Shown: positions 26,201 to 29,200 of the stretch, piece after piece
Numbering within the stretch: position 1 is the stretch's first letter
How the letters are laid out: each line of letters begins with the position of its first letter
NCBI RefSeq assembly: GCF_022846255.1
Contig: NZ_AP025682.1
DNA length: 64,000 nucleotides
Source of the DNA: Escherichia coli
Lineage (GTDB): Bacteria; Pseudomonadota; Gammaproteobacteria; Enterobacterales; Enterobacteriaceae
Reading direction: 5' to 3' (one strand)
Position numbers: made by a program

Positions 26201-29200
26201 CAAAACTGACGGTCTGGATCCCGATCAGGCAGTGGTTGATTTCTACGCGCTTGGTTTAGGTGAAATCTACCCGATCGCCGCGTCTCACGGTCGTGGCGTA
26301 TTAAGTCTGCTGGAGCACGTGCTGCTGCCGTGGATGGAAGATCTCGCACCGCAAGAAGAAGTCGACGAAGACGCCGAATACTGGGCGCAATTTGAAGCGG
26401 AAGAGAACGGCGAAGAAGAAGAGGCAGACGACTTCGACCCGCAAAGTCTGCCGATCAAACTGGCGATTGTGGGTCGTCCGAACGTAGGTAAGTCTACACT
26501 CACTAACCGTATTCTTGGTGAAGAGCGCGTTGTTGTTTACGACATGCCTGGCACGACGCGTGACAGTATCTACATTCCAATGGAACGCGACGGACGTGAG
26601 TATGTGCTCATTGACACCGCTGGCGTACGTAAACGCGGCAAAATCACCGATGCGGTAGAGAAATTCTCGGTAATCAAAACGTTGCAGGCCATTGAAGATG
26701 CCAACGTGGTGATGTTGGTGATTGATGCGCGTGAAGGTATTTCCGATCAGGATCTCTCCTTGCTGGGCTTTATTCTCAATAGTGGGCGCTCACTTGTGAT
26801 TGTAGTGAACAAGTGGGACGGCCTGAGCCAGGAAGTGAAAGAGCAGGTGAAAGAGACGCTGGACTTCCGTCTGGGCTTTATCGATTTTGCTCGTGTGCAC
26901 TTTATCTCTGCCTTGCACGGCAGTGGTGTTGGTAACTTGTTTGAATCAGTACGTGAAGCGTATGACAGCTCCACCCGTCGTGTGGGGACCTCTATGCTGA
27001 CGCGCATCATGACGATGGCTGTTGAAGATCACCAACCACCGCTGGTACGCGGTCGTCGTGTGAAGCTGAAATACGCCCACGCCGGGGGTTATAACCCGCC
27101 GATTGTGGTGATTCACGGCAATCAGGTGAAAGACCTGCCTGATTCCTACAAGCGTTACCTGATGAACTACTTCCGCAAATCGCTGGACGTAATGGGATCG
27201 CCGATTCGTATTCAGTTCAAAGAAGGGGAAAACCCGTATGCGAACAAGCGTAACACCCTGACGCCAACCCAGATGCGTAAACGTAAGCGTCTGATGAAGC
27301 ATATCAAGAAAAGTAAGTAGTCACTTATTTTATTTACTTAGCGCAATGTCGTTCACTTAAGCAGAGCGGCATTGCTGCTAACTGGATAACGGTTTTTTGA
27401 TATCTTCACCTCCCTCGGCCTTGATGATCGGGGGCTATGAGCAGCACTTCCAAATTTCCACGCAGATGCCCCAACCTCTTCGGACTTGTTCCTGTCGAAT
27501 CGGTATTCCCCAGTACTATCAGCGCTGTTGCGATGAACTCAAAGGTAAAATCAGAGCTTATTTCCTGGGGGACAATCTCTTATGTTTCTCTGCTGCTTGA
27601 TTGCATATTCTTACGATCAGGTAGCAAGATGTGACCGCGAGGCTCAGCATTTCAGGCAGTATTGTACCTACTTAGCAGAAAAATGTTCGGCAAAAGGTTG
27701 CGCTGAAGGAGATGGCATTAATAAGATCACAGAAATCGAGCAAATCATTAAGTAGTGCATAAGAAAACGTCCCCCTGTTATGGAAGTCGTCATAGCGCTG
27801 CAAATTAAGGAGCGGCATTGGTTATTACCGCATTTTTTATTGCGCACCATATATCAACAATAAGAATGAATTAACTAATATTAATTTGTTTTATTTATAT
27901 TTATACGGAAAATAAATAAACGTTATTCATATATAAATGATATGTCAGAAATTTAATTTAATATTTACTAGCACTTTATGCAGATTTTAAATAAAATCCA
28001 ATTTAATTTAGTTTAAATCAGGGATGGTTTTTATATGCTGCGTTGGTCTCCAGTGCTTTTTTCTATTATGTGGGCAAGTGCTTCATGGGCATCAGAAGGA
28101 AAAGTAGAACCAATAAATATCAGTTCTACTAATAGTGCTAATACACTTCCTGATTTAGGTAGTAACGAAAAATCAAACAACAAAGATGAAAAAAGTGCTT
28201 TAGTCGATAAAGCTCAGGGTTATTTTATAAATTCCGCAACGCAAGGTTTTGAAAATCTCACGCCCGAGGACCTGAAGGCTCAGGCTGAAAGCTATGCGAA
28301 AGGGCAGGTGACGTCCACCGCTCAGTCTTATCTTGAGAATGTCTTGTCGCCTTATGGTTCTGTCAGAACCAGCTTATCAGTTGGTGAGGGGGGCGACTTA
28401 GACGGCAGCTCCTTTGACTACTTTGTCCCCTGGTATGATAACCAGGAAACTCTCGTTTTCAGCCAGTTCTCGGCACAACGTAAAGACGACCGAACCATTG
28501 GTAACATTGGGGTTGGCGTACGCCAGAACATTGGTAACTGGTTGCTTGGCGGCAACCTGTTTTATGACTATGACTTTACTCGCGGTCATCGCCGTTTGGG
28601 ACTGGGTAGCGAAGCCTGGACCGATTACCTGAAATTTTCCGGCAACTATTACCATCCGCTTTCTGACTGGAAAGATTCAAAAGACTTCGATTTTTACGAA
28701 GAACGACCAGCGCGTGGCTGGGATGTCAGAGCTGAAGGTTGGCTACCTGCATGGCCACAACTCGGCGCAAAACTTGTCTATGAACAATATTATGGCGATG
28801 AAGTCGCACTTTTTGGTACCGACAATCTGGAAAAAGATCCTCAGGCGTTAACTGTTGGACTGATGTATAACCCTGTTCCGCTATTTACCGTAGGTTCAGA
28901 TTATACATCTGGTACGGGTGATAATGATGATTTAAGTGTCAATGTATCCCTGAACTATCAGATAGGTACGCCACTGAAGGAGCAATTAGATCCTGATAAT
29001 GTCAAAGCCCGGCATTCTTTAATGGGAAGCCGCCACGACTTCGTTGAACGTAATAACTTCATTGTGCTGGAGTATCGCGAAAAAGATCCGCTTGATGTGA
29101 CGCTGTGGCTGAAAGCCGATACCACGAATGAACATCCGGAATGTATTGTGAAAGACACACCAGAGCTGGCCGTGGGTCTGGAAAAATGTAAGTGGACGAT

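What the first reader, a model, noticed from the sequence alone, without database searches (positions are those of the whole stretch)
27830..28034. Extreme AT-rich block upstream of sinH-like gene 1, consistent with a xenogeneic-silencing target
About 200 bp of near-pure A/T with phased A and T tracts precede the first island gene, contrasting with the surrounding composition. Such regions in enterobacteria are typical high-affinity H-NS nucleation sites, so the island may be silent under laboratory conditions.
Basis: inference. Interest (0 to 1): 0.45.

Follow-up and report, generated by a model that had tools for sequence, protein, structure and literature searches.

The report
AT-rich promoter region of sinH
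The 200 bases in front of the first sinH adhesin gene are the most A/T-rich DNA in the window and are most likely that gene's promoter region, of the ordinary kind that the bacterial silencer H-NS binds, but the claimed phased tracts are not there and binding was not tested.

Summary
The composition claim holds. Window 27830-28034 is 19.5% G+C, the lowest 205-bp stretch in 64 kb (window mean 51.4%, intergenic median 45%). "Near-pure A/T" overstates it, since 40 of 205 bases are G or C.

"Phased A/T tracts" is not supported:
- AA/TT shows no 10-11.5 bp periodicity (p = 0.70).
- Predicted curvature is no higher than in shuffles.
- Nothing matches the H-NS motif tCGATAAATT within 2 mismatches.

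The block is the non-coding leader of a sinH-sinI-adhesin island inserted between der and yfgJ. A weak hairpin plus T-run lies on its left. A 96-98% conserved ribosome-binding and start region lies on its right.

An A/T-rich block sits directly upstream of sinH in 22 of 24 enterobacterial loci. In the three lineages of this sinH type, composition is kept (81-84% A+T) while sequence is the least conserved part of the locus (68-74% identity).

H-NS silencing is plausible but inferred. The only experimental support is indirect and from the other sinH type: E. coli iatB is undetectable in laboratory media and is activated by LeuO, an H-NS co-regulator.

This is an ordinary feature of a known kind, of low interest.

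Side observations: two separate sinH islands flank yfgJ, and a conserved 20-bp motif lies upstream of the second sinH type.

The parts
27830..28034 (.). A/T-rich block as reported: the non-coding leader directly upstream of sinH copy 1
   Evidence: 19.5% G+C; contains the lowest 205-bp stretch of the 64-kb window.
27849..28018 (.). Core of the block (maximal-scoring A/T segment)
   Evidence: 15.3% G+C. It is the least conserved part of the locus among the three lineages, at 68-74% identity with only one gap, while 81-84% A+T is kept.
27773..28106 (.). Full extent of low G+C (100-bp G+C below 40%), running into the first 24 codons of sinH
   Evidence: composition profile.
27812..27838 (+). Hairpin GCGGCA..TACCGC followed by ATTTTTT at the left edge; a possible weak terminator or insulator against read-through from der
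   Evidence: The terminator-like scan hit the minus strand at 27831-27812. The plus-strand fold is weak in the window (z = -0.36). The homologous hairpin in E2348/69 is stronger (z = -2.9) and has changed stem bases. Status uncertain.
27854..27881 (+). Candidate promoter A: TCAACA, 16 bp, TAATAT (would give a leader of about 147 nt)
   Evidence: Custom hexamer scan, 4/6 + 4/6. It lies in a partly conserved stretch, TATATATCAACAATAAGAAT. Not validated.
27992..27997 (+). Candidate -10 hexamer TAAAAT (5/6) with a poor -35, 38 nt before the ATG
   Evidence: the surrounding TTTTAAATAAA is conserved in the three lineages. The strict sigma-70 scan found no promoter in 27250-28150, where shuffles give 3.3, so any promoter here is probably weak or activator-dependent.
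28013..28100 (+). Highly conserved translation-initiation region: Shine-Dalgarno AGGGATGG 28020-28027, ATG 28035, signal-peptide codons
   Evidence: 96-98% identical among lineages whose A/T block is only 68-74% identical.
28035..30230 (+). sinH copy 1 (inverse autotransporter, 731 aa)
   Evidence: NCBIfam NF033423 SinH, 1400 bits (cut-off 999); Pfam IAT_beta 1e-108.
30242..33650 (+). Downstream genes of island 1: a SinI-family partner (30242-31222) and an adhesion-domain protein (31296-33650)
   Evidence: NF040711 at 3.9e-85; Pfam InvE_AD and BIg21.
27321..27811 (.). Spacer between der and the block, homologous to DNA annotated as an IS4-family transposase remnant in other E. coli
   Evidence: RefSeq annotation of E2348/69 and Z1323HEC0423. 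Mosaic 87-89% identity. An exact 11-bp direct repeat GAGCGGCATTG at 27364-27374 and 27810-27820 brackets it.
34002..34200 (.). Second, milder A/T-rich block between yfgJ and sinH copy 2 (the analogous feature of island 2)
   Evidence: 29.1% G+C. It contains the conserved motif at 34100-34119 and the -10-like TAGAAT at 34153-34158.

Best explanation
The block is the promoter and 5' regulatory region of a horizontally acquired sinH-sinI-adhesin operon inserted between der and yfgJ in an E. coli chromosome.

Shown:
- It is non-coding.
- It is the A/T extreme of the window.
- It is flanked on the left by a hairpin plus T-run and on the right by a strongly conserved ribosome-binding site and start codon.
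- An A/T-rich block in this position is a conserved attribute of sinH loci across Escherichia, Citrobacter, Pseudocitrobacter and Superficieibacter.
- In the three lineages of this sinH type, what is conserved is composition, not sequence.

Inferred:
- DNA that is 80-85% A+T and rich in TpA steps is bound by H-NS/StpA.
- The silencer coats the weak promoter and the A/T-rich first ~70 bp (up to ~250 bp) of sinH, and keeps the operon off in laboratory culture.
- Expression requires a counter-silencing activator, with LeuO the candidate by analogy with E. coli iatB.
- Binding would rest on overall composition rather than on phased A-tracts, intrinsic curvature or a canonical high-affinity motif, none of which is present.
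For: - Composition extreme and extent.
- Gene identity and operon.
- No plausible ORF, no Rfam family, and no significant RNA fold in the block.
- Conserved ribosome-binding site and start (96-98% identity) next to a divergent block (68-74%).
- In 22 of 24 enterobacterial sinH loci the lowest-G+C 200-bp stretch of the ~9-kb locus starts 160-280 bp upstream of sinH. The 200 bp immediately upstream of sinH are 16.5-30.5% G+C in 23 of the 24 loci (the exception is Leminorella, 42%).
- A-to-T and T-to-A substitutions make up 35-40% of changes in the block, against 11-13% in the adjacent spacer. All three lineages stay at 81-84% A+T.
- Foreign origin: the island is absent from K-12, homologues carry an IS4 remnant, and island G+C is 45.4% against 52.7% for the core.
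- TpA steps are 15.7% of dinucleotides against 4.6% in the window. High A/T content and TA steps are enriched in H-NS/StpA-bound CFT073 genes (PMC9765446).
- iatB/sinH is silent in laboratory media and activated by LeuO (PMC6714894). LeuO is an H-NS co-regulator (PMC6698644).
- A related E. coli inverse autotransporter, FdeC, is reported as H-NS regulated. This rests on the title of Easton 2014, seen in a reference list.
- No consensus sigma-70 promoter was found (0 against 3.3 expected), which fits a weak, activator-dependent promoter.
Against: - No H-NS occupancy or hns-mutant expression data for this locus could be obtained.
- The block has no match within 2 mismatches to tCGATAAATT (0 against 1.04 expected).
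- It has no A-tract phasing and no excess predicted curvature.
- The LeuO and silence data come from the other sinH type (725 aa, between yfgJ and xseA). Its upstream sequence is unrelated apart from composition.
- The transcription start is unmapped, and both candidate promoters are weak matches.
Confidence: 0.6

Rival explanations
1. It is simply an A/T-rich promoter and leader with no silencing. The A/T richness would serve promoter melting, UP-element-like contacts or binding of specific activators, and the gene would be regulated conventionally.
For: - It is the only non-coding DNA directly before sinH and must contain the promoter.
- Partly conserved sub-blocks exist, such as TATATATCAACAATAAGAAT and GCAnTTTnTGC.
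- There is no canonical H-NS motif, phasing or curvature.
- A core-genome A/T-rich region also occurs in the window upstream of a 747-aa GGDEF/EAL-type c-di-GMP phosphodiesterase gene (51475-52233). A/T-rich blocks are therefore not limited to islands.
Against: - At 19.5% G+C the block is far below the other 21 intergenic regions of the window (29-58% G+C).
- Composition rather than sequence is what is conserved.
- The orthologous iatB is silent and responds to the H-NS co-regulator LeuO.
- DNA of this composition is generally H-NS bound in E. coli (PMC9765446).
Confidence: 0.25
2. It is a recombination or integration junction with no regulatory role of its own. On this view it would be a hypervariable A/T-rich joint where different upstream alleles have been spliced to sinH.
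For: - E2348/69 and A25 have 99.2% identical sinH (dS 0.025) but only 72% identical blocks and an 87% identical spacer.
- The spacer is visibly mosaic, and identity jumps to 96% at about 28017.
- An 11-bp direct repeat and an IS4 remnant lie just to the left.
Against: - The block is collinear in all lineages, with one gap in 174 positions.
- It occupies the same position relative to the start codon in 22 of 24 loci from four or more genera, including loci with a different left neighbour (yfgJ).
- A mere junction would not keep 81-84% A+T.
- This is not exclusive of the promoter explanation.
Confidence: 0.08
3. The block encodes a small RNA, a small protein or a phase-variation switch (an invertible element or a Dam/GATC switch), as in some other E. 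coli adhesin promoters.
For: - Adhesin genes are often phase variable (general knowledge; the ipuS/UpaE example is mentioned in PMC12525524).
- An imperfect 24-nt A/T palindrome lies at 27878-27932.
Against: - No Rfam match overlaps the block; the only match in 27200-28300 (27757-27793) scores 21 bits against a 50-bit threshold.
- Folds are not better than shuffles.
- Only a 27-aa ORF overlaps the block.
- There is no GATC in the block (read directly from the sequence).
- No good inverted repeats flank it. The best arms are 10-24 nt, A/T-only and 75-90% complementary, as expected in such DNA.
Confidence: 0.03

Closest known systems
E. coli iatB/sinH ('ila' locus) promoter region, activated by LeuO (Goh et al. 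2019, PMC6714894)
   Same: Same gene family (SinH equivalog). Both have an A/T-rich ~200-bp block directly upstream. Both are horizontally acquired islands next to yfgJ. The published gene is silent in laboratory media.
   Different: The published locus is the other sinH type (725 aa, between yfgJ and xseA), which corresponds to copy 2 of this window. Copy 1 sits between der and yfgJ and is 72% identical in protein. Its block is more extreme (19% against 29% G+C). It lacks the 20-bp motif conserved upstream of the other type. Its regulation is untested.
H-NS xenogeneic-silencing targets, i.e. A/T-rich promoter regions of acquired genes (for example bgl, proU and pathogenicity islands; Lang et al. 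2007, PMC2094087; Hustmyer et al. 2022, PMC9765446)
   Same: High A/T content, abundant TpA steps and location at the 5' end of an acquired operon whose G+C is below that of the host core.
   Different: There is no sequence close to tCGATAAATT, no A-tract phasing or excess curvature, and no occupancy data. The low-G+C tract is short (about 330 bp below 40% G+C) compared with the multi-kb filaments described for many islands.
Other inverse-autotransporter promoters under H-NS control: E. coli fdeC (Easton 2014, known here only from its title in a reference list) and Yersinia inv with RovA counter-silencing H-NS (recalled from memory, not checked here)
   Same: An adhesin of the same secretion family, an A/T-rich upstream region, and expression off by default and switched on by an antagonist of H-NS.
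   Different: No regulator has been identified for this copy, there is no temperature or growth-phase data, and the upstream sequences are unrelated.

Membership tests
H-NS / xenogeneic-silencing target region | A+T content well above the genome average over 100 bp or more | tested here: met
   80.5% A+T over 205 bp against 48.6% for the window; it is the minimum of 63,796 sliding windows. 100-bp G+C is below 25% over 27814-28049.
H-NS / xenogeneic-silencing target region | Abundant flexible TpA steps | tested here: met
   TpA is 15.7% of dinucleotides against 4.6% in the window. This is roughly what the composition alone predicts.
H-NS / xenogeneic-silencing target region | Horizontally acquired context | tested here: met
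   K-12 has only 69 bp between der and yfgJ. Island 1 is 45.4% G+C against 52.7% for the core. Homologues carry an IS4 remnant. Only 8 of 5426 complete E. coli genomes carry this sinH type.
H-NS / xenogeneic-silencing target region | High-affinity nucleation motif tCGATAAATT (Lang et al. 2007) | tested here: not met
   0 sites within 2 mismatches (shuffles 1.04). 4 sites within 3 mismatches (shuffles 7.0). Motif wording checked.
H-NS / xenogeneic-silencing target region | Intrinsic curvature or helically phased A/T tracts | tested here: not met
   Periodicity p = 0.70. Wedge-model curvature is not above shuffles.
H-NS / xenogeneic-silencing target region | H-NS/StpA occupancy in vivo, and derepression in hns mutants or by a counter-silencer | not testable with these tools
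   No data reachable. The only support is indirect: LeuO activates the other sinH type.
Sigma-70 promoter | -35 and -10 hexamers with 16-18 bp spacing, upstream of the gene | tested here: inconclusive
   The strict scan found 0 sites against 3.3 in shuffles. The relaxed scan gives TCAACA-16-TAATAT (27854-27881) and TAAAAT (27992-27997) with a poor -35. No transcription-start data.
Intrinsic terminator (left-edge hairpin 27812-27838) | Stable G+C-rich stem-loop followed by a T-run | tested here: inconclusive
   The T-run is present. The plus-strand stem is weak in the window (z = -0.36) and better in E2348/69 (z = -2.9).
Phase-variable adhesin promoter (invertible element or Dam/GATC switch) | Flanking inverted repeats with a nearby recombinase gene, or clustered GATC sites | tested here: not met
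   No GATC in the block (sequence). Only short, imperfect, A/T-only inverted repeats. No recombinase gene nearby.
Known non-coding RNA families (Rfam 15) | Covariance-model match at or above the gathering score | tested here: not met
   One sub-threshold hit only (21 bits against 50), and it lies outside the block.

The most novel reading that the evidence does not exclude
The A/T-rich block may be a composition-constrained but sequence-hypervariable promoter cassette that is exchanged by recombination independently of the gene it drives.

E2348/69 and A25 carry 99.2% identical sinH behind blocks that are only 72% identical. The block is the divergence maximum of the locus in all three lineage pairs. 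Strains would then differ in when they express the same adhesin.

In the window's lineage, two separately acquired sinH islands flank yfgJ, each with its own kind of control region. One has a conserved 20-bp operator-like motif and the other does not.
Probability: 0.15. Interest if true: 0.45.

Novelty: new member of a known kind. Interest (0 to 1): 0.2.

Why it matters
SinH is being pursued as an ExPEC vaccine antigen and has been reported as a urinary-tract fitness factor (PMC9937491, PMC12525524). Whether and when it is expressed therefore matters. If its promoter is H-NS silenced, laboratory-grown bacteria will under-report the antigen, and different upstream alleles could give strain-specific expression.

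The finding itself adds only a routine example. A/T-rich, probably H-NS-bound promoter regions in front of acquired adhesin genes are well known.

Tried and rejected
- A-tract phasing and wedge-model curvature: no signal above shuffles. A weak 13-bp periodicity (p = 0.008, uncorrected over 15 periods) was dismissed as a multiple-testing effect.
- H-NS motif tCGATAAATT and IHF consensus WATCARNNNNTTR: no site in the block.
- Strict sigma-70 scan: none found.
- Terminator-like hairpins at 27812-27838 and 28040-28056: both are weak in the window. The second was rejected as an attenuator (-5.3 kcal/mol, z = -1.2).
- Rfam search at a permissive E-value: nothing.
- Small ORFs and family searches on the 57-67-aa ORFs of the spacer: no family.
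- Invertible-element or Dam-switch idea: no GATC and no convincing inverted repeats.
- The apparent alignment of the sinH1 segment 27969-27983 with the motif conserved upstream of the other sinH type: rejected. The match is 13/20, no better than shuffles (mean 12.5, maximum 15).
- RcsAB-box reading of that motif: 11-12 of 14 matches. About 10% of shuffles reach 11 and 0.4% reach 12. This is suggestive only, and the motif can equally be read as a 12-bp-spaced direct repeat of TTTAGG.
- Experimental H-NS data:
  - Lucchini 2006 is not held.
  - The Ali 2014 supplement is not held in useful form.
  - Shea 2022 is not held.
  - The Hustmyer 2022 per-gene CFT073 table is truncated at about 1.8 Mb, before sinH.
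- A metagenome scan for more sinH1-type upstream regions gave only two loci, both belonging to lineages already in hand.
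Full report
**What is at the coordinates**

Window 27830-28034 is 205 bp at 19.5% G+C.
- The lowest 205-bp stretch in the whole 64-kb window starts at 27832 (18.5%).
- The best-scoring A/T segment is 27849-28018, at 15.3% G+C.
- The window averages 51.4% G+C. In an approximate gene model its 22 intergenic regions have a median of 44.9% and its coding regions 52.5%.
- 100-bp G+C is below 25% over 27814-28049 and below 40% over 27773-28106. The low-G+C tract therefore runs about 70 bp into the gene, and 200-bp G+C remains at 34-37% to about 28300.

The composition claim is real and far beyond chance.

"Near-pure A/T" is an overstatement. Forty of the 205 bases are G or C, and there are only six runs of four or more A or T.

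**The phasing claim fails**

- The Fourier power of AA/TT dinucleotides in the 10-11.5 bp band is ordinary. Against 1000 shuffles, p = 0.70 for the finding, 0.89 for the core and 0.77 for a wider frame.
- A dinucleotide wedge model gave a block mean of 6.6 degrees per helical turn, against 5.75 for the window. Its parameters were recalled from memory, and phased and unphased control sequences behaved as they should.
- About 21% of all 205-bp windows are at least as curved. Composition-matched shuffles of the block are as curved or more (P = 0.65 for the mean, 0.61 for the maximum).

**Context**

The window is an E. coli chromosome: guaB is 99.9% identical to many E. coli strains. The gene order is as follows.

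| Coordinates | Feature |
|---|---|
| ..-25730 | bamB |
| 25848-27320 | der |
| 27321-27811 | 490-bp spacer |
| 27830-28034 | the A/T block |
| 28035-30230 | sinH copy 1 (SinH equivalog, 1400 bits against a 999 cut-off) |
| 30242-31222 | SinI-family partner |
| 31296-33650 | adhesion-domain protein |
| 33777-34001 | yfgJ (zinc ribbon) |
| 34002-34200 | a second, milder A/T block |
| 34201-36375 | sinH copy 2 |
| 36425-37423 | sinI |
| 37534-45615 | 2693-aa RatA-like protein |
| 45669-47036 | xseA |
| 47129-.. | guaB, guaA |

Sources.

K-12 has only 69 bp between der and yfgJ, and yfgJ abuts xseA. The window therefore carries two separate insertions, one on each side of yfgJ, rather than a tandem duplication.
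- Copy 1 resembles the locus of EPEC E2348/69 and a few other strains. Only 8 of 5426 complete genomes carry it, at 85-87% identity.
- Copy 2 resembles the common ExPEC/ST131 type at about 90% identity.
- No complete genome covers 80% or more of 27000-37500. The same double arrangement is present in an independent assembly, DRR322657.
- Island 1 is 45.4% G+C against 52.7% for the flanking core. Island 2 is 53.2%.

**Anatomy of the leader**

- The block holds no credible ORF.
- It has no Rfam match and no fold better than shuffles.
- It has no GATC, and its inverted repeats are no better than expected in A/T-only DNA.
- Its left edge is a hairpin plus T-run at 27812-27838. The hairpin is weak in this allele (z = -0.36). 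It is stronger, with changed stem bases, in E2348/69 (z = -2.9). It may limit read-through from der, but this is uncertain.
- Its right edge is a ribosome-binding and start region (AGGGATGG 28020-28027, ATG 28035). This region is 96-98% identical among lineages.
- A strict sigma-70 scan finds no promoter in 27250-28150, where shuffles give 3.3.
- A relaxed scan offers TCAACA-16-TAATAT (27854-27881) and TAAAAT (27992-27997) with a poor -35.

The promoter is therefore probably weak or activator-dependent, and its start site is unmapped.

**Comparative evidence**

A genome-collection scan returned sinH loci from Escherichia, Citrobacter, Pseudocitrobacter, Superficieibacter and Leminorella.
- In 22 of 24 enterobacterial loci, counting both copies of this window, the lowest-G+C 200-bp stretch of the ~9-kb locus starts 160-280 bp upstream of sinH.
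- The 200 bp before the start codon are 16.5-30.5% G+C in 23 of the 24 loci; Leminorella, whose start codon is uncertain, is 42%.
- The copy-1 type is the most extreme, at 16.5-19%.

Only three divergent lineages of the copy-1 upstream region exist in the data I could reach: this window's, E2348/69's and A25's. Their pairwise identity by sub-region is as follows.

| Sub-region | Identity |
|---|---|
| Spacer 27321-27811 | 87-89%, and visibly mosaic |
| A/T block 27839-28012 | 68-74%, with a single gap |
| Start region 28013-28100 | 96-98% |
| sinH, window against the other two | 89% (dS 0.57) |
| sinH, E2348/69 against A25 | 99.2% (dS 0.025) |

Sources.

- All three lineages keep 81-84% A+T.
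- A-to-T and T-to-A changes make up 35-40% of substitutions in the block, against 11-13% in the spacer.
- Composition and position are thus conserved, but sequence is not.
- That pattern suits a protein that reads base composition or DNA shape, and argues against a long specific operator.
- It also shows recombination breakpoints near the start codon.

**Does H-NS bind it?**

*In favour:*
- The block is about 80% A+T, and TpA steps are 15.7% of dinucleotides against 4.6% in the window.
- High A/T content and TA steps are the features reported to favour H-NS binding. They are enriched in H-NS/StpA-bound genes of CFT073 (PMC9765446).
- The context is foreign DNA.
- For the E. coli orthologue iatB (= sinH, copy-2 type), the protein was undetectable in LB or M9 at 28, 37 or 42 C. 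A transposon screen with a promoter-lacZ fusion found only insertions that drive leuO, and LeuO overexpression raised iatB mRNA (PMC6714894).
- LeuO is described as a co-regulator of H-NS with weak sequence specificity for A/T-rich DNA (PMC6698644).
- Another E. coli inverse autotransporter, FdeC, is reported as H-NS regulated. I saw only the title in a reference list.

*Against:*
- There is no site within 2 mismatches of the published motif tCGATAAATT (0 against 1.04 in shuffles).
- There is no phasing or excess curvature.
- The experimental data concern the other sinH type, whose upstream sequence is unrelated.
- I could reach no occupancy data. The relevant papers or tables are not held or are truncated.

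I therefore rate "promoter and regulatory region of the sinH operon" as close to certain. I rate "H-NS-silenced, counter-silenced by LeuO or a similar factor" as likely but unproven. The combined confidence is 0.6.

**Rivals**

- A conventional A/T-rich promoter without silencing (0.25).
- A recombination joint without regulatory function (0.08). This is not really exclusive of the promoter explanation.
- A small RNA, small ORF or phase switch (0.03).

**Verdict**

- The feature is a new example of a well-known kind and of low interest.
- The more interesting points lie beside it: the two independent sinH islands flanking yfgJ, the block's high divergence under conserved composition, and a conserved operator-like motif upstream of the other sinH type.

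Noticed in passing
window 34100-34119 (and 34153-34158); loci L009-L028 at about -84 to -119 from the sinH start: Upstream of the copy-2 type of sinH, a 20-bp motif TTTTTAGGAATnTATTTAGG is conserved. It can be read as two TTTAGG repeats 12 bp apart. It matches the consensus at 15/20 or better in 15 of 21 loci from four genera, where shuffles reach at most 15. About 33 nt downstream lies a conserved -10-like box (G/A)AATAnAAT. Its core matches the RcsAB-box consensus TaAGaatatTCcta at 11-12 of 14 positions, which is only suggestive. The copy-1 block lacks the motif. No regulator is known to me for this site. It could be where LeuO or another activator acts on iatB.
   Followed up: partly
window 27321-45668: The window carries two separate sinH-sinI-adhesin islands, one between der and yfgJ and one between yfgJ and xseA, rather than a tandem duplication. 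None of 5426 complete E. coli genomes covers 80% or more of 27000-37500. An independent assembly (DRR322657) has the same arrangement. The exact SinH copy-1 protein occurs on at least 23 contigs of the large collection.
   Followed up: partly
window 27839-28012 against L001 and L002: E2348/69 and A25 have 99.2% identical sinH (dS 0.025) but only 72% identical A/T blocks and an 87% identical spacer. The block is the divergence maximum of the locus in all three lineage pairs, with JC distances of 0.33-0.41 against 0.12-0.14 for the spacer. I could not tell whether this reflects old alleles shuffled by recombination, faster mutation, or selection on regulation.
   Followed up: partly
window 27364-27374 and 27810-27820: An exact 11-bp direct repeat, GAGCGGCATTG, brackets the 435-bp spacer segment whose homologues are annotated as an IS4-family transposase remnant. 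It could be a target-site duplication of a decayed insertion sequence (IS4 makes 11-13 bp duplications, from memory). If so, the hairpin at 27812-27838 would once have sat about 40 bp after der, as its terminator.
   Followed up: no
window 27582-27755 (+): A cysteine-rich 57-aa ORF in the spacer is called as a gene in several public assemblies. It has no family match. Its stop is not conserved in A25, and E2348/69 has indels there. It is probably not a real gene.
   Followed up: partly
window 28013-28334: The ribosome-binding site and the first ~100 codons of sinH copy 1 are much more conserved at the nucleotide level than the rest of the gene. Identity over 28013-28100 is 96-98%, and dS is 0.15 for codons 1-100 against 0.4-0.9 further on. 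This could be a recombination tract or a constraint on the mRNA 5' end. The small hairpin at 28040-28056 is too weak to explain it.
   Followed up: partly
window 51475-52233: Two further blocks below 25% G+C lie in the 853-bp region upstream of a 747-aa GGDEF/EAL-type c-di-GMP phosphodiesterase gene (52330-54573). By position after guaA this is probably pdeF/yfgF. The region looks like core genome, so strongly A/T-rich regulatory regions in this window are not restricted to islands.
   Followed up: no
L035 (E. coli Z1323HEC0423) 3864-5957: In this complete genome the copy-1-type sinH is annotated as a pseudogene (internal stop, missing N-terminus), although the upstream A/T block and sinI are intact.
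   Followed up: no
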